Shown here: positions 1 through 43,500 of the stretch, piece after piece
How positions within the stretch are numbered: the stretch's first letter is position 1
Layout of the letters: the number at the start of each line of letters is the position of its first letter
DNA from: Eledone cirrhosa
Lineage: Eukaryota
Length of the DNA stretch: 64,000 bases
Direction of reading: 5' to 3'
NCBI GenBank assembly: GCA_964016885.1
Contig: OZ024740.1
Span: forward strand, 209,808,001 to 209,872,000
Made by a program: the position numbers and the translations under genes
The notes under the pieces: model-generated
Seen by the model: the letters and a program-made list of their open reading frames with translations, nothing else
Databases searched by the model: none
What the model was told of the DNA's origin: nothing

Positions 1-81
1 ATTACCCATCTTATATGTTTTGTCAGCTGGGTTGAAAAATAGTTTCTCTAAGGGGTTGTCGTTATTTCTATCGTCATAGTT

Positions 82-405
82 GTGTGTGTTGCTATTATTG
101 TTATCATGGTGGTTGTTGTTGTTTCTATCCTTAGCATTAATATTATTATTGTTATGATTGCTAGATGTATTGTTGTTTACTTCACCGTTATTGTTGTTGT
201 TGTTACTGCTATTTCTACCATTGTGGTTGTTACTATTATTATGTTTCTTGTTTTTGTTGATGTTGCTACATGTACTATTTCCATTATTACCACTGTGGTT
301 ATTGTTGTTGTTGTTGTTCGTATTGTTACCGTTATTACTACTGTGGTCACTGTTGCTGTGTCTGTGGTTAACGTTTCTATTATTATTATTATTGTGGTTG
401 TTGTT
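82..405. repeat. Cryptic (TTG/TTA)n low-complexity tract
   Basis: Degenerate trinucleotide repeat giving poly-Val/Leu pseudo-ORFs. Confidence 0.85.
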
Positions 406-958
406 ATATATATATTATATTATAAGATTAATAGTATTTTTCATTTTCAGGATATAACCTCGGACATGTTCTGCATCAATGTGGATTTTTCTGCGAACGA
501 TCGTCTCATTGTACCTTGTCGAAGTACTTGTGACACAGTCGCTACTTGAATGGAGAATATACGGCGGTAAAATGAGAGTAGTTGATATATATAAAAGGGA
601 TCTACAGATTTGTCATGAGACTTGGAGAGGAGTAAGTAACAACACAGCAAAACCGGGGGTGAGGGGAGTGGTTCCCGTTTGTAGAAGGAGCAATGTAAAG
701 TGGAACGGCTGATGTAGCGAGTGTCGTAGGCTGTTCTCCGGGACCTTCTTGTTTTGGGGGTGCAGCTGAAATATACCGCCTAACCAAAGGTGGAGGGTCT
801 GCCCCTCCCTTCGCCTAACATTTTTAAAATCATTATTTTACTCAAATCCCGTCGAGGTTAACTTTGCCTTTCATCCTAACGGGGGTCGATAAAATAAAGT
901 ACCAGTAATACACTGGAATAATTGCTGGTCTTGTGCCTATTGTAGAAACAATTATTTT

Positions 959-962
<4 letters not shown>

Positions 963-1010
<48 letters not shown>
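963..1010. repeat. (CT)n microsatellite
   Basis: Direct observation. Confidence 0.95.
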
Positions 1011-1014
<4 letters not shown>

Positions 1015-1619
1015 ATTACAAAATATTAATTTCTAATTTAGACAGAAGGAGAGCAAATTTGAGGGAAGAGCAAAGTTAACCCTCAGTACTTTACTGATAC
1101 TTTATTTTAGTGACTCCAGAAAATTGAGCTTGACGGGATTTAATTCAGTGTAAAAAGCTAGAATAAACGTCACAATGACATTTTATCCGACTCTCTATCA
1201 ATTCTGCCAACCCATCATCCTTATTCATTAACTTATTACTAACACAACATAAGGCACAATGACTGGAAAAATTAATTAATTTTTTTTTATTCGTGAAAGG
1301 AAGCTGGAAGGTTGACGGTCATGTATTTTTACAAATAATTCGCAGTATTAGTTTATGCAAGATGATTTCAAGATTGTAATGCGTCCGTCACACTGACTAT
1401 GCATTGTATCTTGAAAACAAAGCGTGTATTTTCAGATTATATGAAATATCCAAAGGGACGTAATTGTTGTTATTTTGTTAATAGTCTCCCTTAGATCGGG
1501 CAGCAACTTGCTTATATAAATCAATCGAGGCGAGATTGTCAAGCATATTGAATTACCTTGCAAATCTCCAGCTGATGTACAACAAAGACCCCCCCCCCCC
1601 ACATACATACATACATACA

Positions 1620-1650
<31 letters not shown>

Positions 1651-1669
1651 GCATACATACATACATACG

Positions 1670-2048
1670 ACAATGTTTAATAAAAAACCAAATAATGAAA
1701 TATTACGTGTTATTAACGAAATAGGGGATGAATATTTACGACGGATAAAAACCCCAACATTTTGGCAAATCAACGCCTGTTTATATGCCTTAGCAACGAC
1801 AGTGAAGCATTATCTTGTTGATAGCAGAGATATTAACAAGAACAACACCACCAAAAATACCATCATATATAACTAAAATAGAAAAAAAGATTGCTGACCT
1901 ACGAAAAACCATAGGATATGTGACAATGTTCCTTACACAAAAAAAATCTCACTCCTCACAAACAAAGAGTGAAAAATAAAATAGAGACGATGTATGGTAA
2001 CAGTAGAACCAGAACTCTTCAATATAAGCTGATCACGCTCAAACAAGG
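1670..2048 (+). mobile_element. Degenerate N-terminal fragment of an R4/Dong-like non-LTR retrotransposon
   Basis: Broken translation FWQINACLYALATTV...KKIADLRKTIG...KIETMYG...LQYKLITLKQ resembles the pre-RT region of R4-clade ORFs; bounded by (TACA)n and (TA)n. Confidence 0.4.
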
Positions 2049-2063
2049 TATATATATATATAT

Positions 2064-3249
2064 CACAGACCTTGCCTTCGAGTCAATCTTCCAATCGAAG
2101 ATGGTTGGCCTTGAGCCTCTGCTGAAGAATATCGAAGTTTTCGAACCCCATCAAGGTATCTTCATACTCATGAACTACCTCTCTATTCCTAAGCTTCTGT
2201 ATCTGCTCAGGGTCAGCCCCTCTCACAGATTTCCGTCCTGCCTCCAACGCTTCGACGACCTAATCTTCGAGAGACTCGAGTGCCTGGTCAATATTAGAGT
2301 CTCTCCAGAGTCCCGCGATCAGGCTGCGTTGCCCAGGCAATTTGGGGGTCTTGTCTTCGTAAGTGTTCGTCCCTCTCTCTCCCCTGCTTCCTTTCCTCCA
2401 CCCACGCTACATCCTCTCCAACATGGACTAGTTCCAACAGGGAGTTGGGTGAAGCTCTCCAGCAATGGAGTGAGTTGGGCTTGTCTCTTCCTGAGAAGGT
2501 GGAGGACGGTCGAAGTCAGAGAACTTGGGACAGCATAAGTTTGACTCCCTCTTCGTCCAGTCAGATCAGTTTGCAAGATGCCGCTTACTATCTGCCAGCG
2601 CCAAATACTCAGGCGACTGGGTTGATGCCCTACCGTGGCCAACGTTGGTGGCCTACTCAGCCTGGATGCTGCGGTTAGGACGAGAACCACAGCTTCTGCA
2701 GCCGAGGGGAGTAAGACCCTCAAATACTCTGATCTGTCGGCCAGCTACATTTTTGGCTTTCGATACGTTTGGGGGAGTCGAGCCGCTGACTGCGAGGTTC
2801 CTCTTTTCACTGGCGAATTGCGCGAGGGCGCTTGGCTGTTCCAGCACATCAGCCTCGTCATCACTCGAGGCAACGCTGCGAGCGTTCTGGCTTGCCTCAA
2901 AAATCATTAGAGAGGTTGCCCAGTACTCCTCGCGACGTTGCTGTCTTTTGCTCTGGTGTTGGTTCGGTTGTTCACCCCTTCCTTTACATTTTCTTTAATA
3001 TTGTAACATTAAAAGAATGTATCTTTCTGAATGAATCGCGAGCAATTTATAATGTTATCTAAGCATTTATAATGTTATCTAAGCATTTATAATGTTATCT
3101 AAGCATTTGTAATGTTGTTTATGTATATATTTAAAACATATTTGTTATGTTATTCTACTGTAAATTTATCTATATGCTCTGTTTATATTTTCATTCTGAA
3201 AGAATTGCAAACGATTTCTAATGTTATTTCTAATGTTATTTAATGCAAC
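2064..3249 (+). mobile_element. 5'-truncated, internally deleted CRE-like (RLE-type) non-LTR retrotransposon
   Basis: GC-richer block with frameshifted PKLLYLLRVSP, RDQAALPRQFGGL, RLLSASAKYSGDWVDALP, WLFQHISLVITRGNAASVLACL motifs; AT-rich 3' UTR with 20-bp tandem repeats (3041-3120); (TA)n on both sides. Confidence 0.65.
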
Positions 3250-3271
3250 TATATATATATATATATATATA

Positions 3272-3526
3272 ATGTAGGAGGTGAGTTTTATTGTAGTACA
3301 ATAAAACAATGCAGATATCGGATAAGTAGCACTCTACAGTTTGTAGGACTGGAGTATAAATAATAATATATAAGATCAAAAGATGGTTAAAAGAGTTCTA
3401 TGTATTTTATTATGCGCATTTCAAAAACAAATATCATCATGCAATAACATTTGCGTTTTCGTCAGATAAAATAGGGAGACATGATATGAAGGTTAAAACA
3501 CACTTGTGAATAGTGCAGTTTTAAAT

Positions 3527-3530
<4 letters not shown>
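3272..3530 (-). mobile_element. Putative Penelope-like pseudo-LTR unit carrying the hammerhead, flanked by (TA)n
   Basis: About 260-bp unique segment bounded by (TA)n tracts on both sides, containing the hammerhead and downstream AATAAA on the minus strand. Confidence 0.5.
3403..3473 (-). ncRNA. Minimal type I hammerhead ribozyme (Penelope-like element type)
   Basis: Minus strand TATTTTAT-CTGACGA-[16-bp stem II, GCAT loop]-GAAA-TGCGCA-TA-ATAAAATA: intact CUGANGA/GAAA/NUH core, perfect 8-bp stem I, short palindromic stem III. Confidence 0.78.
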
Positions 3531-3601
<71 letters not shown>

Positions 3602-3648
3602 ATTGATAATGATAATGAAATTATTGTGTAGTGTTCAGGTGCACTACA

Positions 3649-3705
<57 letters not shown>

Positions 3706-4154
3706 ATATAAATATACGTTATTCCGGGTTGAATCGGAGGTAACCACAGTAAGTAAGGTACTCAATACATAGCAGAGTATATATATATAAATATATATAC
3801 ACACACACACACACACACACTAGACACCTTTGGTCATATGTCAGCTGGATAAGGGCAGGCCATGGGTTAAACAGTAATTTGACCTGCTCTAAATTCCCTA
3901 GTTATCATTTGAAGGCCCTCCAGAAGAACCTGAAAAACTTACAACTACTACTCGTCTCACTAAATCTATTTTGGAGCGTCTAAAGTAGGGACACTCAAAT
4001 GTTTTTAAGACCATCGAATCCTTGACGCCTATTCGACACAAGCATATACAAAAATAAATAAATCAGTAAACGGAATATAAAATAAATAGACAATAAAGAC
4101 TCATTATATATATTCAACAAGTTGCATTTTATTGTATTATTTTATATATATTCA

Positions 4155-4310
4155 GGATCACCTGGCGACGAACGTTCCAAAAAGACCTGATGGCAGCCAA
4201 CATCACTTAGCACGGACGCAAAAAAACCAAACACTGCTAATCGTGACCGTTGGCGAGTACTTACTGCTCGATGTGCTGAGCGGCGCGTAAGAACCTAAGA
4301 CTAAGATTCA
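4155..4310 (+). mobile_element. RTE-like LINE 3' end
   Basis: TWRRTFQKDL...RDRWRVLTARCAERR followed by a CTAAGA tandem tail. Confidence 0.55.
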
Positions 4311-4797
4311 TGTTTTATACAAAATGACAGATTTTCGTCTAACGTTCCCTCGACCACTTTCGGGACCCTTAAACTACAGTCGTTTGACATGCTCGAAATA
4401 ATAAGCTGGGATGGTCACATTTGGAATACCTTTAATTATAGGTCTGCTCAATCAGAGTTTGAGGTTAAACAACTCTTTTAGTTAAATAATAAAGGCGATC
4501 TTTATTTTTAAAACATGTATTTTTAAAAACATCTTGTTAAATGTTAAATAACTGCATAAGGTGAGTAAGGAAAAAATTCCTCCACAAAACATTTATAGAA
4601 TAACTAGAGGAATTTCTTTAAAAAATAGATCCGTTTAGTAGATTAAAACTTATTAATTAATATATACTTATATACCTCTCTCACTCCTATTAATATTGTT
4701 TTCGTGGCGTCAATGATTATACACAACAATCACCTACACGGTTATAATTGGTTAAATACATGTAATTCATTGCAAATTACGGTAGCTTTAAATAGCT

Positions 4798-4870
4798 GGC
4801 CGCGTGGCCTAATGGATAAGGCGTCTGACTTCGAATCAGAAGATTGCGAGTTCGAGTCTCGTCGTGGTCG
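4798..4870 (+). tRNA. tRNA-Arg (anticodon TCG)
   Basis: 73-nt cloverleaf: acceptor GGCCGCG/CGTGGTC, D arm GCCT/AGGC, anticodon arm TCTGA-CTTCGAA-TCAGA, T arm GCGAG-TTCGAGT-CTCGT; followed by a TTTTT Pol III terminator (4875-4879). Confidence 0.97.
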
Positions 4871-5559
4871 TATCTTTTTAATTTCAAATACTATTATAGA
4901 GGGTTAAATAAATTTAAGTTGTATTTACGCTGTCCATTATAATATTTCTGAATTAAGATATCAGTCGTTAATGCCGTATATTAACGTTTTATTCAGCCAT
5001 ATTTTCCTCATTCTCTAAAGGATTAATAATATTTGGTGTTACCATCAATGGTATTTTATTGTATTTTATTGTATTAATTTCAAGAATTAATTAAATGTAA
5101 AGCAAAATGTTTCTATTTAGAATTAAACGAACAATAATACATCTGTTTTTAATTCCCAGTTAAAGTAAATTTCACTTACGTCGTTCAATCACATTTTCCT
5201 ATATTTTCGAAGTAAGATATTTAAAATTTATCTCCAAATTGTGTACAAATGATCTAAAAATCTCAAATTCTAGTTTGAGGTTTGATACTATAACGCATAT
5301 TTCTTAATTGCCGTTGAAATCTTGAAATTATAGAGGTAATTAAAACTACGTTAAGGTTAATGAAACTTATATAAAACGATAAAAAAAATCCCATACAATT
5401 TGATGCAAATCTAATGGTGAATATTAAAAGATATCTTTCACTAAACAAACATTCAGATAAGCAATGATTTTAGAAGGCGCGGAGATTTAAGTACGAAACT
5501 ACTGATTCTGAACAAGTGCTGTCTTTTCTCTCTGTATTCATGTTTTCTTTAAAGCCAAT

Positions 5560-5605
5560 ATGACGGACGTCAAAGATCCGGCGATGCCTGCCGTCACAGA
5601 AATCG
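5560..5605 (+). CDS. NELFB: NELF-B exon 1 (MTDVKDPAMPAVTEI)
   Basis: ATG at 5560, strong donor G|GTAAGT, phase 1 joins exon 2 (G+TG = Val). Confidence 0.75.
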
Positions 5606-5982
5606 GTAAGTATACAGAAACTATTCCATAAATCAAAAGTAGTAATGTATTTCTTCCTCGACGTTTCTGTTTAAAATGTTTTCCACATATTATTCACAAA
5701 TTAATCTAATATTTTATTAACCATGCTGTCAGTAACAGCACCTAAGCTGGCACTAATAACACGCTTAAAAAGTTTATATTGTGAAAATATTTTAAGTTCA
5801 ATCCACTGGTTTAATTTAATTTTATATTCTATTTTGAAAAGTATAATTCTCTTAGATAATCACTTAGTTTGTTTCCAAAAATAAAATCAATATCTATAAT
5901 TATTTAATTCTATCACTGTTTACGTAAATATCTAATTAGGCATCTGTTTTTCAATATGAGTTTAACGATAATTTGATGACTA

Positions 5983-6045
<63 letters not shown>

Positions 6046-9000
6046 TAATGTGTGTGTCTGTGGTGGTAGGAAACCTCGACATTAAGTCTCGAAATAAGAG
6101 AATGAAAATATTAGATCCAGCAGATTCATTATGTTTATTCACGTTAGGGTTTAAGTTTGGCTTGCGGTAATTAACGAAATCAATGTGTATGTATATATAT
6201 ATAATGGAGGCACATGGCTTAGTGGTTAGAGCATTGGCCTTGCAATCGAAAGGTTGTGAGTTCAATTCTCAGACTGGGTGATGTGATTTTTCCTTGAGCA
6301 AGACACTTTATTTCACATTACTCTAGTTTATTCAGCTGTAGAAATGAGATCATTTCACTGCAGTGGTCGTGGAGGTGCTACGGCAAAAAAGCACTCACTG
6401 TAAATGAGGTTGGTGTTAGGAAGGGCATCCAGCTCAGCCAGCATCAGTTCCTGTCCCACCCTTGCAAGCAGGGAAAAAGCGGACTTAAAATGAAATGATA
6501 TGAAGTGTGTGTGTGTAACTACACGGCAGTTGTGAAAAGTCAATTGGCGAAACTTGTATTACTGCCATTATTAAAATAAATACAATAAATCATCCCTCTA
6601 CAATAAGTATAAAGGTCTGTCTTTAGATAATGTTAGTAATGTGCAAAATATGTCTTACAACAACCACATTACGATATAACTCTACACGACTTCAAATTGG
6701 GCGGTGGATTGGCAGTATCGGTAGAGGGTCGGACGTCATGTTTTGACGCATAGAATTACGGCCCTTTCTATTCTGAGGTCAACTTTGCCTTTCATCCTTA
6801 CGGGGTCGATAAAATAAAGTACCAGTAATGTACTGGGTAATTGCTGGCCTTGTGCCAAAAGTAGAAACAATTATTATATTTCACAAATTATATTTGATCA
6901 GCACTAAAACACCAACAACTATTGAAGAGTGGAATACAATATTTACATGGGATCACTTACCAACTTTGCAGTAATGCAAACAAAATTCAAAACTAACCCA
7001 TTAAAAGTTCCTCAACCTAAAATTTATTTTATTTCCAATAGTTTCTTACTTTGTTGATATTTCTTGTGATCTTCACTAATAATAACTGTTATTCTTAGGT
7101 GTTACATAATTTAGGCTGTCACTTATGCCTAATTAAAGAAATACAGTAATATTTGAAAGGATATCTAATTTTAATAATTTGTATTTCTAATTTGAAATCC
7201 TTTTGCATTAAAATCTAGTTTCTAGTTGCCATTTGTTAAGCATTACATTATTATAATGTCACTTCTGTTTTCCATTTTCTCTATATTAATATTTTCAGTG
7301 AAAGGAAGTGGTCTTGAAGACCTGGGTATGGCCGGAGGAGAATTCTTGCGTGAAGCACTGACCAACTGTTCTGACCCACTACTTGCTATTGAAGAATTCC
7401 AGTCTGAAAATGGTATCCTCTTGCCTTCACTGAAGCCAGCACTTCCTTTCCTAGACCTGCATGGAATGCGTCGTCTGGACTTTCATACTTCTGTTGTTGA
7501 AGAGCTGAGAGAAAAACTACTGCAGAAAATCTCCAACTTGGCCAATAGCTCTGATGAGGAACGGTTTAAAAAGCTTGAGGCCTTGCTACAAAAATGCTAC
7601 CCTGCTATCAAAGTAAAAACCTTGCGTCCTGTAGTAATGTGTATCTTGAAACATTTACCAGAGATTAAAGAAGATTATTTGGTTCAGATTGCTGCCAATA
7701 GACAATACTATGAGGAAGCTGCAACTGAAGTTAAGAGGCAGATATGGCAAGACAACCAGTCAATGTTTGGAGATGAAGTGTCTCCTCTTTTTTCTCAGTA
7801 CATAAAAGAAAAAGAAGATACATTACTTGGACATGAGAACAGCACATCAGTTTTCTACATGCCATCTCCTCGTATGCGACGACAGGGGGAAGTAGTACAA
7901 AAACTCGTTCATATGATAGGACGCAGTTTGCAGCTGTATGATATGGTGCTGCAGTTTTTACGGACACTTTTTTTACAGACAAGGAATACACATTACTGCA
8001 CTTTGAGAGCTGAACTTCTAATGGCATTGCATGATCTTGAGATAAATGAAATCTGCTCTGTTGACCCATCACATAAATTTACCTGGTGTGTTGATGCATG
8101 TGTTCGAGAACGGTTTGTTGACACAAAGCGTGCAAGAGAGCTACAAGGATTTCTTCATAGTATTAAACAAAGCCAAGAACAACTACTTGGGTTAGTATTT
8201 TTTTATGTTCTAATTATTTTTTAACCTTATTTTTGATGTAATAAGGAATAAAGGACAACAGGTAGAACATATAAGTTCTAGATTTTACATTTGATATAAA
8301 GTGGGATCTGTGATTAGTAATACAGGCTCTATTTATACTAATAGTCATTCAAATCTTATATCTTTATCAATATCTTCTAATTCAGATCAACCTTTTTATA
8401 CTGTCTCTTTGTAAGAAAGCATATTTACTTTTTTCTTTCTTAAATATTGAAAGTCAAAAATTTGAATTTGATTTTTAGAAAATATATTTTTTTTCTAAAA
8501 GTATTTCTGAGTAATTCATAGATTTTTCAAAGGAATCTTTAATTGCTGTGCAATTTGACAGCTGAATTTATTTTAGCTTAATAAATCAAAATTAAAATCT
8601 AAAGCTTTGGTATGAGAGTGAACTAATCCAAGAAAAACCTCTGCTTGGTTTCAGTGTCCATGTTATTGAAATTTGTTACAGTTACTATGTTTATCACAGA
8701 AAAATCGCAACCAGATGGATTGCTCTGTTACATCAAGCCAAAATCAGTTCTGTATGAGCAAGACACGGTCACCTGACCTGACATTGCCCCAACAGGACAA
8801 CTCGTCTAACCTATGCTAGCGTGGAAAAATGGATGTAAAACGGGGATGATGATGATGATGATGATCAAGAAAAATACAAAGAATAAAACAAAAACAAACT
8901 AGGTTTTGTTTTGCCATTTTAGAAAAAAACAAACTATTAGCACAAGTTTTGGTTTGTGTAATGTTTTCATGGTATCTATAGATCAAGTATGAATAAGTTA

Positions 9001-12000
9001 TTTGTTTAGAACTTTGCAATCATCATCATCATTTCCCTGGTAGCAAAGGTTGTACGAGTGATCATAGACCAGTTAGTACTCAAGCAGAACTACTGACCTC
9101 AGACAGGTAGGAGGCCTGCATCTCACTTTCTTACATTCCCGCACTTTATCGAGTGTTTAGACAGGCTAGGGTCTACTATTTACTTACATATGTTCCCACA
9201 CCTTACCGAGTGTTTAGACAGTCCAAAGGTGCACTATTTACTTACATATGTTCCCACACCCTACCAAGTGTTTAGACAGTCCAGAAGTCCACTATTCACT
9301 CACATATGTTCCTGCGCCCTACCATGTGTTTAGAAAGGCCAGGGATCTACTATTCACTTACATATGTTCCCATGTCCTACCGAATACATATTTTTAATAT
9401 TCAATAACCACAGTCAAGAGAATGTCAAAACAGATCAGATGGTATTTAAGATCCAGCAACTTCAACGGTTTCGGCACTGATTTGAATATGGTGGTCATTA
9501 GTTTACTTGGCCAGCTGTGGCACCATCAGTATCCTATATTGTTTGCATCCATCACAACTTTTTTACAGTTGTTGATGCTGCTATAGAGGTAGAGATATTA
9601 TCTTTTTTACTTGTATTTTACCTTTAAATATGCCGCCTAAGCAACCAGCAAGTAATGCTGCACACAGTGGTAATATGTGGCATTATCTCAGTTCCAGAAG
9701 GAGTCGATACTGATAAAACTAGAGAGTGGTACATCAATGAGAACTATGTGTGCAGAATATGGTATCAGTAATACAGTACAGTATATTTGTTACCCTAAGC
9801 TTCCACTGGTTTGGAAAATCCGTGATTCCAGCACCCGTCTGGTTCCAGGCTTGCTGGATTAGTGAGATCCAGCCTGTAGTAATGTATAAAACTTTAGAAA
9901 ATGTAGTAAGATTCAAGGTAAATTTATCTATAATACCATTTATTTATTTATTTATGTCTTTGTTCATTAAAAAACAAGCAATGTGTTGGGTTAATATCTG
10001 GTTGTCATTCACCAAGCAACACCTGTTTCTCTAACCTCTAAGTTCAATTAGTTTCTGATCTTTGATACAAGTTCACTATAACTTTTTGTTTCTTCATGGT
10101 TCAGTCTTACGTCCTCTAATTTTAATAAGTTGTAGTAACTTATAAAGCAAATTGGCAGAGTCATTAAAACATTAGAATGCTTTGTGGTATTCGTTTTGAC
10201 TCTCTGCTCTCTGAGTTCAAATCCTGTTGAGGTCATCTTTGCCTTTCATCCATTTGAGGTTGATAAAAAAGTACCAGTCTAGTACTGAGGTCGATTCTTC
10301 CTCTATATCTCTCTCATTTCCATTCTCTTACTCTCTCTTTCTTACTCTGGAAGAAATCTGTTGTATTCAGATCTGGAGAGGATTGGGCTCAAACAAGTTT
10401 TTAAATGCCTCAGAAGTTACAGGACCATGAATGCTCGCTGTACCTTATAAATACTATAATGTATTGGATGTATTATGAAACTTCCCTATTGCTGGTTATC
10501 ATTTTAAGTCTGTATATCTGATTATGTATAAAATTTACTTATGTTAATTAAGTATCGATAAAATGTTGTTAGCTGAAATTTTGTTTTGATTTCAATAACT
10601 AAATTTCTGTTTATAAACAAATATCTCTTAAAGTATTCTATTTGTATTTTGTTTTTAACTTCCAAGATTTTTATTAACTCCCTTCAGTCTAATCTAATCT
10701 TATAGTTTGATATATTTTTTGCATACACCTGCCACATCTCATACTGTTTCCATCGACTTTTTTTTTTCTAAAAGCTTCTTTATTCTTCGTAGAATTTTCT
10801 GTTAGAAATTCTCTGCAATCAATAATAATTCTTCTGGTATGTAAGCTGCTACTTGACACACATCATCATTATTTAATGTCCATTTTCTTTGCTAACAAGA
10901 GTTGAACAAGTTTTCGCAGGCTGAGTCACTACTCAAACAGGGGCTACTGACCTCTCAGATAGGCTGGAGGCCTGCTTCTCACTTACATACAATCTGGCCC
11001 TCTACTAAGTGCATTTTATTGTGACATCAGATATTGTCATGTCTTCGACACAGTTGAAGAGTCCTCACAACCTTTTATTTGGCAGGTCTCCTATGGCTGG
11101 ATGCCCTTTCTATCACCAGCAACTTTATAGAGTATACTGGCTGTGTTTTTCATGTAGATCACCAACACTTTTTTTTACTTGTTAGATCTGTAGAAAAGAG
11201 CAGTGCCCATGGTCATTGCAGGCCCCCCAAGACCAATGCGATTGGTGTTAATATTCTGCTTAAACTGTTACAAGACATCACCTATTGTAAAGTGATGTAA
11301 CTCAAAGCTGCAAATGGTATTTTGGAGATCGAAAGATTGCTATGTCTCTCTGTTTTATTATTACACCTGAGCAAGGGTGTTGGGTTGGCAGAATTGTTAG
11401 AGTATCGGCAAAATGTTTTGCAGCATTTAGTTACGGCTCTTTACATTTTATGGCCAGCTTTGCCTTTCATCCTTCAGGCTCGATAAAAAAAGAACCAGTC
11501 AAGTATTGGGGTCGATTTAATCAACTTTCCCTTTTGTGCCTAAATTAAAAATCATTGTTACAACTTAGCAGTGGATTGGCAGAATTCTGTTGACATCATC
11601 TTTGTCTTTCATCTTTCTAAGGTTGATAAAATAAAGTACCAGTAAAATCGATATAACCAACTTTCTTCTTCTCCCAAATTAATGGCCTTGTGCCAATTTT
11701 AGTAAGAATGATTGCAAGTTAGAGGATGGATTGACTTCACTTCACATAGAACTCACTGATTATATTCTTAACAGTGCCAACTTCCTATTTAGAAAGAAAT
11801 ATCTTAGCTCTTGAGTGAATCTTGACTCTATAAGTTCCAAATATGCTACACTACGTTGTTGGATTGGCAGAATCGTTAGAGCGTCGGACAAAATGGTTTG
11901 CACCATTTAGTGAGCTCTTTACATTCTGAGTTCAAATTCACTTTGCTCACTCTATTGTTCAGATTAAAGAAGATATCTTCCCTGGTTAAACTCTACTGAA

Positions 12001-33600: not shown

Positions 33601-36600
33601 ACTTTTGGATTTAGCTAAGTCTGAAATCACATGAAAAGCTTACGCTCACATTGCGAAATCAACTCTTTGCTACATGCAACACAATAGGCTTTCCATAAAT
33701 ATTTTTTAAATTGCCCCCTAAAAAGTTTAAGAACCTGAAAAAAAGAATAGGCAACTGCTATCCCATGGACATTATCAATTTGTGTAACTTGAAGATGATT
33801 ATCACCTCAGTTTAAAAGATATATATATACAAGTATCCCTATAGAGCTCCGTGGAAAGGACAACACAGTTTTCTTGATCATTTTCATGTCAAAATAGATT
33901 TTTTTCAATGGACAATTATATTTCATTTGAAAGTTCTGGATGTGAACATACTAAAATTATTATTTATTTCACTATACTAAGATAGTAACTGGTATAAAAT
34001 TATGTTGGAAGATTTTAATTTGAATAAGAACCATTTAAAACTTGGCTTTGTTTCATAAAAGCAGAGCTAGTTTGGGGTGGGTTACTAATAAAAAGGTTTA
34101 AAAAATAACCCAGATAATTGAAAGATGATTCTAATTTATATCTTACCTTTCCAAGATATCTTGCCGTAACATTGAACCTTGTGGTAATGTAATCAGTTCC
34201 AATCCAGACAGAACTCCAACTCCAAGATCTTCCTGTCCAAGAATGCGAATAAACTCTACATCAATCTTTGTAAGATGCTGAGCAATTCGTCGAGGATTGT
34301 CCATTAAAATGTCGTAGACTTTGAAAAAGACAGGAACATCTAAAGGTTTGTTTTCTTCGGGAATTAATGTACCATGGTAATTATGAAGGTTATAGCTCTT
34401 ACGAAAACCTTTCTCATTTGGAATGGTGATGTTTTTTGCTTTCATGTAATTAACATCGAAAATTTGTTCAATGTATTCTTCATTGATAGAATCTTTATTT
34501 GTTGGAAATTTTGATTTACTTGGAAATTTATTTTTTAAATGAGATTTACCATTTTTGTTAATATTTGTTCCTTGAGCTGAATTAACATTTATTAGATTTT
34601 GATGATAGGTAAATTCCAACTTTTTATCAGCTTTGATCCAGCTGGGTGTTGCCACAACCTGATCAAGCTCACTATAATCCATCTCATCATCGTATAATGC
34701 AGCATTTCGGATTTCAATGGTAGGCCTTTGCTTTGATTTGATTGAGGCAACCCTACTGGGTTTAGGAGGTGGAGCTTTAGATAGGCTGCTCTCTGAAGAA
34801 GCTGGATTTAGGGAACTTTCTGGCACTGTGAGGAATGTTGGACTTATTAGTTGTGGTGACAAGATTGGTTCACTACCACATCGACTGTGATGAATTGGAG
34901 GAGATGGCATTGTAGGGGTTGCTATTGGGGATAAAGATGAGCTATAACCAATTGAGGGAACACTGTCAGAGCGACCCAAGTGGGACGGTGAAAATGGAGC
35001 GTCAGAATTATGTTGTTCTAAACAGAGTACAGGCTGGCTACCAGTCCTTTTAGGAAGGCCTCTCATCCCAGTTGGACTGTCAGGGGGAGTTGTAGTTGGG
35101 GTCACAAAAGGACTTGGTTTAGGGCTAACATTTGGTGTGCTCGAATAAAATCCGTAGTTCTTATTCAGAGGAGAACCATACTTCATATCGTAATAACTAA
35201 GAGGTAATTTCCGAGGAATAGCTCTTTTCAGAATTACATTTGATGCCTTTGTTACGGCTTTAGAATATGTTACATAATAATCAATAAGACTAGGGATGGA
35301 TGTGAACTCATCATCTTCAAGTAAATAAATTATTTTGGGGTCAGCATATCCATCAACGAAAACTTTAGAATTTATAATGAAGTGCATAGGGACTCCATGC
35401 CAACCACAAGAAAGTACAAAGTCCCCTGGCTGTGATACACTGTCTCGGACAAGGTAGTCACCATTGGTAACAACTAATTGTTCAGCAGAAAGCCGACTGA
35501 TTTGACCATGGTACCAAGAATATGATCGTAAATCAGCTGGGTCACCTTGTAACTCTAGATGTAGATCAAGCTGTAGTTTCTCATTTGTAGCGTTCTGGTT
35601 GTTGTCATAAATAGTTGGTGAGAAGAAAGACCTGAAGAAACAGACACAACATAAAGATGGAATGAATTTTCACACAAAGTTTACATGACAAGTATGGCAG
35701 AACTGGAAATAAACAAATGTAAAGAAATTGCTAAATATGCAAAGAATATTTATGTGGGAAATATTGAAATAATATGTAAACTATTTGTGGTAATTATGTT
35801 AGATTTGGGTCATGATTTTGTAACAGTTGGATATGAGAGATAGAATTACCACTCAATAATATCACACACTCAAAGACACAAACATCCATACAAATTAACA
35901 AGGAAGTCTCTGTCAGGGCTTCCCAACCAGATAAATTTCATACATGAATGATAATTTAATTCTTTATAATATTTTTTCCTTTTCCTAATGTTTCATTTTT
36001 GTTTACATATTATTAAAAAATTAGATTATATATATTTGTTGCTCAAATTTAGTATTAATTCATTTTCTTTATCCTAAAATAAATTATTACTTTTTTAAGG
36101 GGTGCGAGAACATATTAAAAAATGTTTAGGGGTTCAGGCATGCAAACAGTTGGAGAAAACTGATCTATGTGATAGCTTCATCTGTAAGAAATAGCAACCA
36201 AATCTCCCTCAAATCACACCCTATGGTCTTAAAAAATAAAGAACACATTGGATAATGTAGTCCTGGGTGCCCAGGAAAAAGATGAGTTAAGCCTGTCCAT
36301 AACCCAAAGGTTCATCAAGTTGGAACTTATCCCAATTAATATTGGATTGGAGTTAAGTGATTAAGTGTACAAGGCTTCTTCACTAGGATGGGATGCTAGT
36401 CCATTGTATGGTTAACTTCCAGCTGCTGCTAGTTATTCATTTTCCTTGGCTGAGTGGACTGAGGAATGTAAAATGAAGTGGAGATGTGTAAATTTGTCTT
36501 TGTGCAAGTGTATATTTGTATGTATGAAAACACTCATATATGTATGCCACAATATATATAGTGTGTAAAGTGGTCATGTAGGTGACACGACAAAAAGGTT

Positions 36601-40517: not shown

Positions 40518-43500
40518 TTATGGTTGCTTGTAAATAAACTGACCTAAAAACCTGGATGTTTAGATACAATGTAGCAGTAGCCCAACCCCAAAATATCTTC
40601 ACACATTCCTTTCTGTCATAAAGACATGACATAAAAACAAAGCCATGGACAAATGTTTATTATAATAACATCCAGTTGATAACCAATGTGAATATTTGTT
40701 ACATTTGGAGACAATTTTTAGGAAGAATGTTTACAGCTGATCACGAATCTAATCTTGATTAGATATTTTGGGGCCTAAATAACAATGCTACTTACTGTGA
40801 TCACTGATACCTTTTCTATAAGAATAACCAACTGATAACATTAAACCTTTAGCATTCACATTACTCTATATTTACTATTGTATTTTCCTAATAAATGCTT
40901 TATCTCACATAATTTCAAATCTATGAGATTTCGATATTATTCATTTTGAGAACAATACCTTAACATCAGTATGTGTGGCTGGTTACAACTGGTTTGTACA
41001 GAAGAGGTGAGAGAATTCTGGCCAGATATGGCCAGTTTAAATGCTAATGGGTTAACTCTTAACATCCTGTAACGGTTTAGCAGAAAATATCTAAAAACGG
41101 GTTTGATAATTGAAATCTTTATGGTATATTTCTTTACTAGTGGATAGTTTACTAGTGGACACTTTGCAGTAAACTAGTTTACTAGTGGACACTTTGCAGT
41201 AAACTAGTTTACTAGTGGACACTTTGCAGTAAACTAGTTTACTAGTGGACACTTTGCAGTAAACTAATTTACTAGTGGACACTTTGCAGTAAACTAGTTT
41301 ACTAGTGGACACTTTGCAGTAAACTAGTTTACTAGTGGACACTTTGCAGTAAACTAATTTACTAGTGGACACTTTGCAGTAAATTAGTTTACTAGTGGAC
41401 ACTTTGCAGTAAACTAGTTTACTAGTGGACACTTTGCAGTAAACTAGTTTACTAGTGGACACTTTGCAGTAAATTAGTTTACTAGTGGACACTTTGCAGT
41501 AAACTAGTTTACTAGTGGACACTTTGCAGTAAACTAGTTTACTAGTGGAAAGTTTGCAGTAAACTAGTTTACTAGTGGACACTTTGCAGTAAACTAGTTT
41601 ACTAGTGGAAAGTTTGCAGTAAACTAAAGACTTTAATATGATAAAGTCATACTGCTGTTTTGTACTTTTCATAAATGCTTTAATAATTGTTTCTACGTTT
41701 GGCACAAGGCCAGCAATTACCCAGTGCATTACTGGTACTTTATTTTATCGACCCTGTAAGGATGAAAGGCAAAGTTAACCTTGGCAGAATTTGAACTCAG
41801 AATGGCAAGGACCGTAGCTCTCTACGTCAAAGCATGGCGTCCGCCCCTCTACCAATACTGCCAATCCACAATAATGGTTTCTGGTTTAGGCATAAGCCAA
41901 CAATTTTTGGGGAAGGGGAAAGTTGGTACTATATTTTATCAACCCTGTAAGGATGAAAGGCAAAGCTAACCTTGGCGGAATTTGAACTCAGAACGTAAAG
42001 GGCCATAACTCTATGCTGCTAAACGTGTTGTCCAACACTCTCCTGATTCTGCCAATCCATCTTCATGTGATACAGAAGGTGATGAGTCAAGCAAATATAG
42101 TTTTGAATCGACTAAATTTGAAAGCTTTGACTAGCTGATAACATTAGTGATTATAATAAGCAGCTTCCACTGTATTCAGAGTTACATCCAAGTAGTTATT
42201 GTTCTAAAATCTCCCATCCACATCCATCTTTGAAATGTACATTTATATAATAAATTCTTTATCTATATATCTAAAACAGAGAATGTCTGTCTGACTCCCT
42301 AAAACTTGAGAACCACCCAACCGATTGTTTTCAAACTTTACACATGTAATACTTATGGTCGTGTGGGTGTTTTGCGCAAAAAATATTTCAAATTTTCAAT
42401 GCCCTAGGGACCACATTAGGTGATTTAGCGATCTCTCTTTATAATTCTTAGTCTTTCTTTTTAGTTAGATACATAGATATAACGTTATAATATGTCTGGC
42501 TGTCTGCATTACGACATTATGATGTCGCTATGTGTGTGTGTAAATATGTATATATAGTGTGTGTGTATATATATATATATATATAGTGTGTAACGTTTTT
42601 CAAAATATTTACTTCTGCGTTCACAGATTGATATTTTTAGTTTCAGAAGATCCCGTTAAGGGTGAAAGCAGCGATTCTTTGCTTAAACTTTAGTCTGTTA
42701 TTTTAATATATATATATATATATATATATAATTATATATTCGTGTACAGATATTTTTGAATACACAATAACAAAATATAAACAAAAGTATTTATTTCACG
42801 AGGCTTGATAAGGATAAATATATGTCAAATATATAAGAACCCTAGAGCAAATCCCGAGCAGCGCCGGGCCATTCTGCTAGTTGATCACTAAAATTGGTAT
42901 AGTAGTAACAATGGTTTCTGATTTAAGCACAAGGCCAGTAATTTGAAGAGAAGGGAGAAAGTCAATTAAATCAACCAATGTGTTATTGGTACTTTATTTT
43001 ATCGACACCTCTAAAGATGAAAGGCAAAACTATCCTTGGTGGGATTTGAACTCAGAATGTAAAGGACTGTAACTCTATGCCGCAAAGTATGTTGTCCGAT
43101 GCTCTACTGATACTGCCATTTCATTTCCCTTTTAATGATAATAATAATAATAATAATAATAATGTTTCTTATTTAAGCACAAGGCCAGTAATTTAAAGGG
43201 AAGGGTAAAGTTGATTAAATCGACCCCATAAGGATGAAAGGCAAAGTTAACCTTGGCAGGATTTTAATTCAGAACGTAAGAGACTGTAACTATATACCAC
43301 AAAGCATGTTGTCTGACGCTCTACCAATCCACTGCCCTGGGTATAGTAGTGATAATTGTTTCTACTTGTGGCACAAGGCCAGCAATTATCTCAGTACATT
43401 ACTGGTACTTTATTTTATCGAGCCCATATGGATGAAAGGTAAAGTTAACCTGGGCGGGATTTGAACTCAGACCATAAAGGGCCATGACAATGCTGCAAAG

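What the first reader, a model, noticed from the sequence alone, without database searches (positions are those of the whole stretch)
3403..3473. Structurally intact self-cleaving hammerhead ribozyme on the minus strand
Seen: TATTTTAT|CTGACGA|AAACGCAAATGTTATT-GCAT-GATGATATTTGTTTTT|GAAA|TGCGCA|TA^ATAAAATA. All catalytic core bases are present, stem I is a perfect 8 bp, and stem II is about 16 bp with G-U pairs and one mismatch. Stem III is a short palindrome (TGCGCA). Predicted cleavage is after AUA (between 3411 and 3410). Known: minimal type I hammerheads with palindromic stem III occur in Penelope-like elements and retrozymes, where they are thought to cleave as dimers. Inference: this marks a small (about 260 bp) TA-targeting, ribozyme-bearing retroelement family. 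The long stem II and AUA triplet are atypical.
Basis: partly seen in the sequence, partly recalled or inferred. Interest (0 to 1): 0.75.

Follow-up and report, generated by a model that had tools for sequence, protein, structure and literature searches.

The report
Ribozyme stub of Penelope jumping gene
This hammerhead-ribozyme motif is real, but it is one of more than 22,000 copies carried by a jumping gene of a known group (Hydra-type Penelope elements); it is predicted to cut only in pairs, and the short copy here was likely copied from the capped, uncut front end of the element's RNA.

Summary
The motif is present as described (3403-3473, minus strand; none in 150 simulated windows). It is not a separate 260-bp retrozyme. 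Window 3272-3534 is a solo pseudo-LTR of a young Penelope-like retrotransposon: longer copies run into a reverse transcriptase plus GIY-YIG ORF with Hydra-clade motifs, and the motif occurs 22,457 times (control 4). Hydra elements and their hammerheads are published; no paper on this family was found. Its 16-bp stem II and AUA triplet differ from all 25 published Hydra hammerheads. Folding predicts the active form only as a double hammerhead; cleavage is untested. Copy ends are more informative: 35 of 90 arms start at one site 124 nt upstream of the cut site. Joins to (TA)n number 559 there against 4 at the cut site, and an extra base there is an untemplated G in 88 of 100 (a looser test gave only 30 of 100). 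Short copies are therefore likely run-off cDNAs from capped, uncut RNA, primed at two sites about 83 nt apart. This scan noted the same cap and two-arm pattern several times on other DNA. Verdict: new member of a known kind.

The parts
3272..3534 (-). Solo pseudo-LTR stub of a Hydra-clade Penelope-like element; 5' boundary 3530-3534 is blurred by the (AT)n repeat
   Evidence: differs from the majority of its 29 nearest copies at 2 of 259 positions (3399, 3306)
3403..3473 (-). Type I hammerhead motif: stem I 8 bp, core CUGACGA and GAA, stem II 16 bp closed by A-U, palindromic stem III; predicted cut 3411^3410
3412..3419 (-). 8-nt palindrome (stem III); predicted to pair between two hammerheads (duplex -10.5 kcal/mol)
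3399..3483 (-). Possible 4-bp extension of stem I (3483-3480 with 3402-3399) beyond a 6-nt pyrimidine bulge; the window copy has lost its last pair at 3399
   Evidence: (87.5% of cells paired)
3531..3534 (-). Inferred capped transcription start (A at about 3534), the shared 5' end of short copies; this copy is joined straight to (AT)n without the extra G
3355..3372 (-). TA-rich tract where the 'short' 3' ends of the family fall (inferred internal priming site 1)
   Evidence: 46 of 90 arms
3272..3354 (-). 83-nt 'tail' between the two fixed 3' ends; the long end at 3272 is inferred priming site 2, and in tandem copies the sequence runs on into the ORF leader
   Evidence: 38 of 90 arms end here, 3 run on
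3250..3271 (.). (TA)11 target repeat at the element's 3' end
3531..3603 (.). (AT)36 target repeat at the element's 5' end

Best explanation
The motif is the hammerhead in the pseudo-LTR of an abundant Hydra-clade Penelope-like retrotransposon, and the window holds only a 260-bp stub of it, likely made when the element's reverse transcriptase primed inside the RNA leader and ran to the capped 5' end through an uncut ribozyme. Shown: full units of 3.6-3.8 kb with an RT plus C-terminal endonuclease ORF, partial tandems with a hammerhead on each side of the ORF, (TA)n targets, two fixed 3' ends about 83 nt apart, one fixed 5' end. Inferred steps: (1) RNA polymerase II starts in the upstream pseudo-LTR, giving a capped RNA with the hammerhead at +62 to +132 and the ORF start at +342. 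(2) The endonuclease cuts (TA)n and the RT primes at either internal site, usually one site per end of the break, so two-armed insertions carry one long and one short end. (3) Priming in the 5' pseudo-LTR gives short cDNAs that stop at the cap, sometimes leaving an extra G; priming in the 3' pseudo-LTR gives long, randomly truncated copies. (4) The ribozyme would cut only as a double hammerhead (5' and 3' pseudo-LTR of one transcript, or two RNAs), slowly or with the element's protein, and most templates that were inserted had not been cut. The solo window copy has no partner in the window and is likely inert.
For: Element identity: (ORFs up to 771 aa in L038 and 805 aa in L043; RLRW, DKT, YRDDG, CxCX5C linker, CxxC and CxH), matching the Hydra definition and collinear by eye with published Hydra proteins. 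Abundance: 22,457 matches against 4; 40 of 40 scored best copies 98-100% identical. Tandems: two hammerheads 3,581-3,770 nt apart in 6 of 20 RT-selected loci. Ends: of 90 arms, 35 start within a few bases of one site, 46 end at the short and 38 at the long 3' end; 24 of 28 inverted pairs have one of each (pairs counted by eye). (TA)n joins: 559 at the start site, 4 loci at the cut site (by eye), 1 match at a control ATAT site with the extra-base pattern. Extra base at the start site: 88 G, 8 A, 4 C among the first 100 of 115, while the templated base is C in 53 of 53 read-through matches. Dimer fold: -33.3 kcal/mol with the core open against -22.6 for two free monomers; the core-open monomer loses stems I and III. 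Stem II changes between subfamilies keep pairing (96.8% of cells). Precedent: an anole Penelope element primes at two internal sites that define the tail, its hammerhead needs the protein, and uncut RNA is the main substrate (PMC11167929).
Against: No RNA data and no cleavage assay. The G signal is weaker outside (TA)n joins: 10 of 27 in the unbiased sample and 30 of the first 100 of 848 in a filtered search, where A was commoner (36). In (TA)n joins the G could also come from a 5-nt duplication of the element's first bases. Inverted joins show a small bump at the cut site (11 of 85, against 5 and 6 at two matched ATA sites, but 16 at another position, by eye), so some templates may have been cut. 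Pair counts do not beat the shuffle control (125 of 500 as high; one pair with a two-sided change), and the core was fixed by the search pattern. Pfam and PDB sequence searches recognised nothing in the ORF, and no tree with published Hydra proteins was built. A cut-and-religated RNA would leave the same sequence.
Confidence: 0.75

Rival explanations
1. The 260-bp unit is an independent non-autonomous element (retrozyme or SINE-like) with its own promoter, moved in trans by the Penelope protein.
For: A discrete class with fixed ends exists (35 of 90 arms). Short labels are slightly clustered on the tree (19 changes against 23.4 shuffled, 13 of 500 as low). A 2026 preprint derives retrozymes from pseudo-LTRs (10.64898/2026.07.22.740005). 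An internal promoter is not excluded.
Against: Short and long copies are mixed in the subfamilies sampled, starred branches force at least 12 label changes, and 4 sets of identical rows hold both kinds; the two arms of one insertion inflate the clustering. No head-to-tail array of short units among 90 arms.
Confidence: 0.12
2. The two hammerheads cut out a unit-length RNA that circularises, and rolling reverse transcription of the circle makes the copies.
For: Proposed for Penelope hammerheads (PMC4209133). More-than-unit copies exist, with 5' pseudo-LTRs reaching up to 1.8 kb upstream of the start site. Religation restores the motif without a scar.
Against: A circle has no 5' end 124 nt upstream of the cut site and no cap, so it cannot give the commonest short class. 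It could still account for part of the long tandem copies.
Confidence: 0.15
3. The motif no longer cuts; it is kept as a structure (protein docking site or promoter element), and the shared 5' end is a microhomology or RT-pause hotspot rather than a cap.
For: Stem II is closed by A-U, not G-C, in the window's subfamily, and a slipped register that traps core bases is 2.6 kcal/mol lower. The start site lies in a 6-nt palindrome and an ATAT that match the target. Few copies begin at the cut site.
Against: The most distant subfamily keeps the core and has G-C at that pair. Other ATAT or ATA sites give 1-17 joins against 559. An untemplated G in 88 of 100 is not expected from microhomology to (TA)n.
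Confidence: 0.15

Closest known systems
Hydra clade of C-terminal-endonuclease Penelope-like elements (Craig et al. 2021, PMC8557442; passages, section 11 and supplement parts 2 and 7 of 59 seen), e.g. Hydra-1_Obim, Hydra-1_Ajap
   Same: Single RT-EN ORF, DKT, RW motif, CxCX5C linker, CxxC and CxH, (TA)n targets, hammerhead near the 3' end, partial tandems and inverted 5' copies
   Different: Unit 3.6-3.8 kb with a 1.2-kb 3' region (published consensus lengths 1.1-3.0 kb); RWI instead of RWK; stem II 16 bp against 3-7; U15.2-A16.2 and AUA triplet, whereas all 25 listed families have C15.2-G16.2 (A17 itself occurs in 11 of 25); tail about 83 nt against 30-40; hammerhead sequence unlike that of Hydra-1_Obim
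Minimal hammerheads of metazoan Penelope-like elements (Cervera and de la Pena 2014, PMC4209133; parts 1-2 of 4 read)
   Same: Type I, palindromic helix III region, enlarged helix II, dimer-dependent and weak in vitro, mostly found as single motifs in truncated copies
   Different: Helix II is twice as long, lacks the usual unpaired base after A9 and (in the window's subfamily) the G10.1-C11.1 pair
Poseidon element of the green anole, PAc (Frangieh et al. 2024, PMC11167929; parts 1-2 of 4 read)
   Same: Two internal RT start sites define the tail, AT-rich targets, both strands primed, uncut RNA as main template
   Different: Other clade; there the hammerhead overlaps the ORF start and priming needs no homology, here it lies over 200 nt upstream of the ORF and both priming sites resemble the (TA)n target; a cap-derived G is not mentioned in the parts read
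Metazoan non-LTR retrozymes (PMC7229834, passages; preprint 10.64898/2026.07.22.740005, part 1 of 5)
   Same: Short non-coding unit with a type I hammerhead, dispersed in high copy number
   Different: Retrozymes are head-to-tail arrays without an ORF; these units are solo or head-to-head and are continuous with a coding element

Membership tests
Type I hammerhead ribozyme | Core CUGANGA, GAAA, UH with three helices, open at stem I | tested here: met
   stem III forms only between two copies
Type I hammerhead ribozyme | G10.1-C11.1 pair closing stem II (usual, not obligatory) | tested here: not met
   A-U in the window; A-U 24, G-U 10, G-C 3, other 1 among 38 rows; PMC3088659 passages note that even U-U occurs
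Type I hammerhead ribozyme | Match to an Rfam hammerhead model | tested here: not met
   no hammerhead among 20 matches at E<=5 in 1-10,000
Type I hammerhead ribozyme | Covariation supporting the helices | tested here: inconclusive
   96% of cells paired, changes mostly one-sided wobble, one two-sided pair, not above shuffles
Type I hammerhead ribozyme | Tertiary contact between stems I and II | not tested
   a 6-nt bulge in extended stem I and a mismatch near the base of stem II are candidates only
Type I hammerhead ribozyme | Self-cleavage | not testable with these tools
   needs an assay or raw RNA reads
EN+ Penelope-like element | Single ORF with RT and C-terminal GIY-YIG endonuclease | tested here: met
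   by motifs and by-eye collinearity with published proteins; Pfam and PDB silent
EN+ Penelope-like element | Partial tandem forming pseudo-LTRs with a hammerhead in each | tested here: met
   6 of 20 RT-selected loci
EN+ Penelope-like element | Inverted 5'-truncated copy and a tail at one end only | tested here: met
   24 of 28 inverted pairs have one long and one short end
Hydra clade | DKT instead of DKG; RWK motif | tested here: met
   SDKT and RLRWI (K replaced by I) in L038, L039, L043
Hydra clade | CxCX5C linker, CxxC and CxH around E and N, no CCHH | tested here: met
   (L031) read by eye against the definition
Hydra clade | Insertion into (TA)n | tested here: met
Hydra clade | Generally shorter than 3 kb | tested here: not met
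   unit 3,581-3,770 nt; the paper gives this as a tendency, not a rule
Hydra clade | RT groups with Hydra elements in a tree | not tested
   published proteins were seen only as cut text in a supplement and were not entered into a tool
Non-LTR retrozyme | Head-to-tail arrays of 150-450-nt units | tested here: not met
   0 of 90 arms continue into another short unit
Non-LTR retrozyme | No coding capacity; own lineage | tested here: not met
   continuous with the ORF; short and long copies intermixed
Non-LTR retrozyme | Expressed as circular RNA | not testable with these tools
   needs RNA

The most novel reading that the evidence does not exclude
Thousands of genomic copies record the element's capped start site and show that Hydra-clade Penelope elements insert by priming both ends of a (TA)n break at two internal leader sites of a capped, uncut mRNA; the long-stem hammerhead is a pair-gated switch that cuts only when two pseudo-LTRs meet, removing the cap and six of eight upstream AUGs, and so sorts RNAs between insertion and another fate instead of making the insertion template.
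Probability: 0.4. Interest if true: 0.55.

Novelty: new member of a known kind. Interest (0 to 1): 0.3.

Why it matters
The motif alone is ordinary for its clade. What the family adds is in vivo, genome-scale support for an open point about Penelope elements: what their hammerheads do and how the inverted, one-tailed insertions arise. The ends of copies say that most templates were capped and uncut, which agrees with the one in vitro study and argues against circles as the source of short copies. They also give a precise start site, two priming sites and a cut site to test. A 16-bp stem II with an AUA triplet escapes Rfam and the usual descriptors, so such motifs are probably undercounted.

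Tried and rejected
Rfam scan: no hammerhead match. Loose core pattern: chance level, and too short for this stem II. Pfam and PDB sequence searches on the ORF: nothing above threshold. Protein search of the genome for distant families: wrong coordinates, not repeated, so families with another stem III were not sampled. Sequencing runs: no RNA holder listed; contigs of three coded runs cover the element but say nothing on expression or ends. First tree had wrongly assigned short and long labels and was replaced (79 rows: 78 of the 90 arms plus the window; 12 arms with intermediate or unplaced 5' ends left out). Alignment A1 used 37 of 48 distinct sample sequences plus the window; those with indels, truncated flanks or near-duplicates were left out. 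cannot test the cap G, because its junction reads G on one strand and C on the other; it is used only as a count (260 joins). (82 matches at the cut site) is dominated by point mutants and a 3-nt deletion in intact copies, so it is not a clean control. A spike of 5' ends at the cut site was sought and not found. An RNA-editing origin of the G-U pairs was considered: 7 of 12 common stem changes are A/G and 4 are C/U (by eye), too even to claim. Luense et al. on dimeric Penelope hammerheads was not held; only its title was seen. Paper searches for a cap-derived G in Penelope elements or for this family and for natural AUA triplets found nothing; the library lacks most subscription journals, and Repbase and Dfam could not be checked.

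Full report
1. Observation. A strict descriptor finds this one site in the window and none in 150 simulated windows. Rfam has no match, and a loose pattern is at chance level.

2. What it belongs to. The piece 3272-3530 has 1,026 first-look candidates in the 3.0-Gb genome; the 40 scored are 98-100% identical. A pattern for core plus stem III has 22,457 matches against 4 for the reversed control. Many copies run on upstream through an AT-rich region of about 1.2 kb into an ORF. Twenty loci chosen by their RT part gave ORFs of up to 771 aa (L038) and 805 aa (L043, ending in unrelated sequence) with RLRW, DKT, YRDDG, a CxCX5C linker, an endonuclease region with IYEC and YFGST, and CxxC and CxH motifs. 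These are the marks of the Hydra clade (PMC8557442 section 11), and the protein is collinear by eye with the published Hydra proteins. Pfam and PDB searches were silent, so the domain names rest on this comparison. In 6 of the 20 loci a second hammerhead lies 3,581-3,770 nt upstream, in front of the ORF: the partial tandem that makes pseudo-LTRs. In those loci 18 of 24 motifs found through their flanks have an intact core and stem III. The window copy is a solo pseudo-LTR between two (TA)n tracts and differs from the majority of its 29 nearest copies at two positions, both outside 3403-3473.

3. The ribozyme. In 38 aligned rows from about four subfamilies, 96% of cells pair; stem II changes are mostly A-U/G-U or U-G/C-G, and the pair closing stem II runs A-U, G-U, G-C. 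This does not beat the shuffle control (125 of 500), and the core was fixed by the search pattern, so the support is moderate. With the core held open, the monomer loses stems I and III (-9.8 kcal/mol); two copies fold as a double hammerhead at -33.3, against -22.6 for two free monomers; a slipped register that traps core bases is 2.6 kcal/mol lower in the window's subfamily and 0.6 lower in another. Penelope hammerheads are known to be dimer-dependent and weak (PMC4209133 parts 1-2; review PMC6765202 passages). Against the 25 Hydra families in the published table, stem II (16 against 3-7 bp) and the U15.2-A16.2 pair (all 25 have C-G) are unusual; A at position 17 is common (11 of 25) (counted by eye).

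4. The ends of copies. Ninety arms were taken from the first 100 listed pattern matches on contig C1; the last 10 were not analysed. 3' ends: 46 at a TA-rich tract (window about 3355-3372), 38 at 3272, 3 run on into the ORF, 3 elsewhere. Of 28 inverted pairs, 24 have one end of each kind. That is the one-sided tail of Penelope elements, which in the anole element lies between two internal RT start sites (PMC11167929 parts 1-2); here it is about 83 nt. 5' ends: 35 of 90 fall within a few bases of window 3534, 124 nt upstream of the cut site; 48 lie further upstream, 6 downstream, 1 unplaced. Genome-wide, 559 copies, the window's among them, are joined to (TA)n at this site and 260 are joined head to head in one exact form. 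At the cut site 4 loci are joined to (TA)n, against 12, 2 and 17 at three neighbouring AT or ATA positions (100 of 105 matches listed, loci counted by eye). Among 85 inverted joins, 11 start at the cut site, 5 and 6 at matched ATA sites and 16 at another position (by eye). Most inserted templates therefore carried an uncut, or religated, hammerhead.

5. A cap signature. Where one extra base separates (TA)n from the shared start, it is G in 88, A in 8 and C in 4 of the first 100 of 115 matches; the templated base is C in 53 of 53 read-through matches (overlapping loci not removed). The same pattern at another ATAT site has one match. An untemplated G at the 5' end of retrocopies is the known trace of copying an m7G cap (recalled from the LINE-1 literature; two searches gave no passage to cite). 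Against this: G is 10 of 27 in the unbiased sample and 30 of 100 in a search that excludes the commonest junctions, with A at 36 (GG made up 26); a 5-nt duplication could also give the G in (TA)n joins. I put the cap reading at about 0.7.

6. Mechanism. Likely: a capped transcript starts in the upstream pseudo-LTR and carries the hammerhead in a 341-nt leader with 8 upstream AUGs. The protein cuts (TA)n and primes both ends of the break at the two internal sites. Priming in the 5' pseudo-LTR gives stubs such as this one; priming in the 3' pseudo-LTR gives long copies. The hammerhead would cut only when paired with a second one, and cutting is not needed for insertion, as found in vitro for the anole element. 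Short copies are not their own lineage: 19 label changes on the tree against 23.4 shuffled, at least 12 forced by well-supported branches, and 4 identical sets shared with long copies. A retrozyme reading fails on tandem layout and on coding continuity (PMC7229834 passages; preprint part 1 of 5). Circles may still explain some more-than-unit copies.

7. Novelty. Hydra elements, their hammerheads, (TA)n targeting, tails and inverted arms are published. Four searches found no paper on this family or on a cap-derived G in Penelope elements; Repbase, Dfam, the paper on dimeric Penelope hammerheads and 57 of 59 supplement parts of PMC8557442 were not read through and could hold it. This scan had already noted the capped-start and two-arm pattern, and long stem II variants, in other Hydra families of this and another genome (unchecked AI notes); a look-up by this sequence found nothing. 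I ran the cap test before seeing the notes on caps, and they are not used as support. No RNA evidence was available. Verdict: real motif, new member of a known kind, interest 0.3.

Noticed in passing
window 2060-2910 (+): Decayed 3' part of another retroelement, with frameshifts; its last reading ends in a motif that I recall as the C-terminus of CRE-clade restriction-like-endonuclease LINEs; Pfam gave nothing for one fragment.
   Followed up: partly
window 1680-2050 (+): Short broken reading frames that resemble the N-terminal part of another LINE (recalled likeness only).
   Followed up: no
window 3045-3116: 20-bp tandem repeat, 3.6 copies, 98% matches, just beyond the element's 3' (TA)n.
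   Followed up: no
window 4797-4871 (+) and 6213-6276 (+): An intact tRNA-Arg(TCG) gene and a weak tRNA-like sequence, probably a tRNA-derived SINE.
   Followed up: no
window 7226-8224 (+) and 34143-35669 (-): Long coding exons: COBRA1/NELF-B (E 1.6e-98) and an SH2-domain protein. The stub lies 3.7 kb upstream of the first, on the other strand.
   Followed up: partly
L032:3946-5004 (+): A second, different Penelope-like fragment with a CxxC zinc-finger linker and YIGET motif (Neptune-like by eye) sits back to back with a copy of this family.
   Followed up: no
L019, L027, L106, 3' flanks: The same GC-rich palindromic element of about 130 bp follows the (TA)n tract in several loci, another repeat that targets TA tracts.
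   Followed up: no
L091, L106, L113: A distant subfamily (endonuclease region about 60% identical in L106) keeps the core and stem III, closes stem II with G-C and shares both the start site and the long 3' end.
   Followed up: partly
L032:614, L068: Some copies have G at position 17, which would block cleavage; 1 of 90 in the sample.
   Followed up: partly
window 41091-41744 and 56526-57766: Long tandem repeats (30-bp and about 98-bp periods judged from their translations) that stay open in several frames.
   Followed up: no
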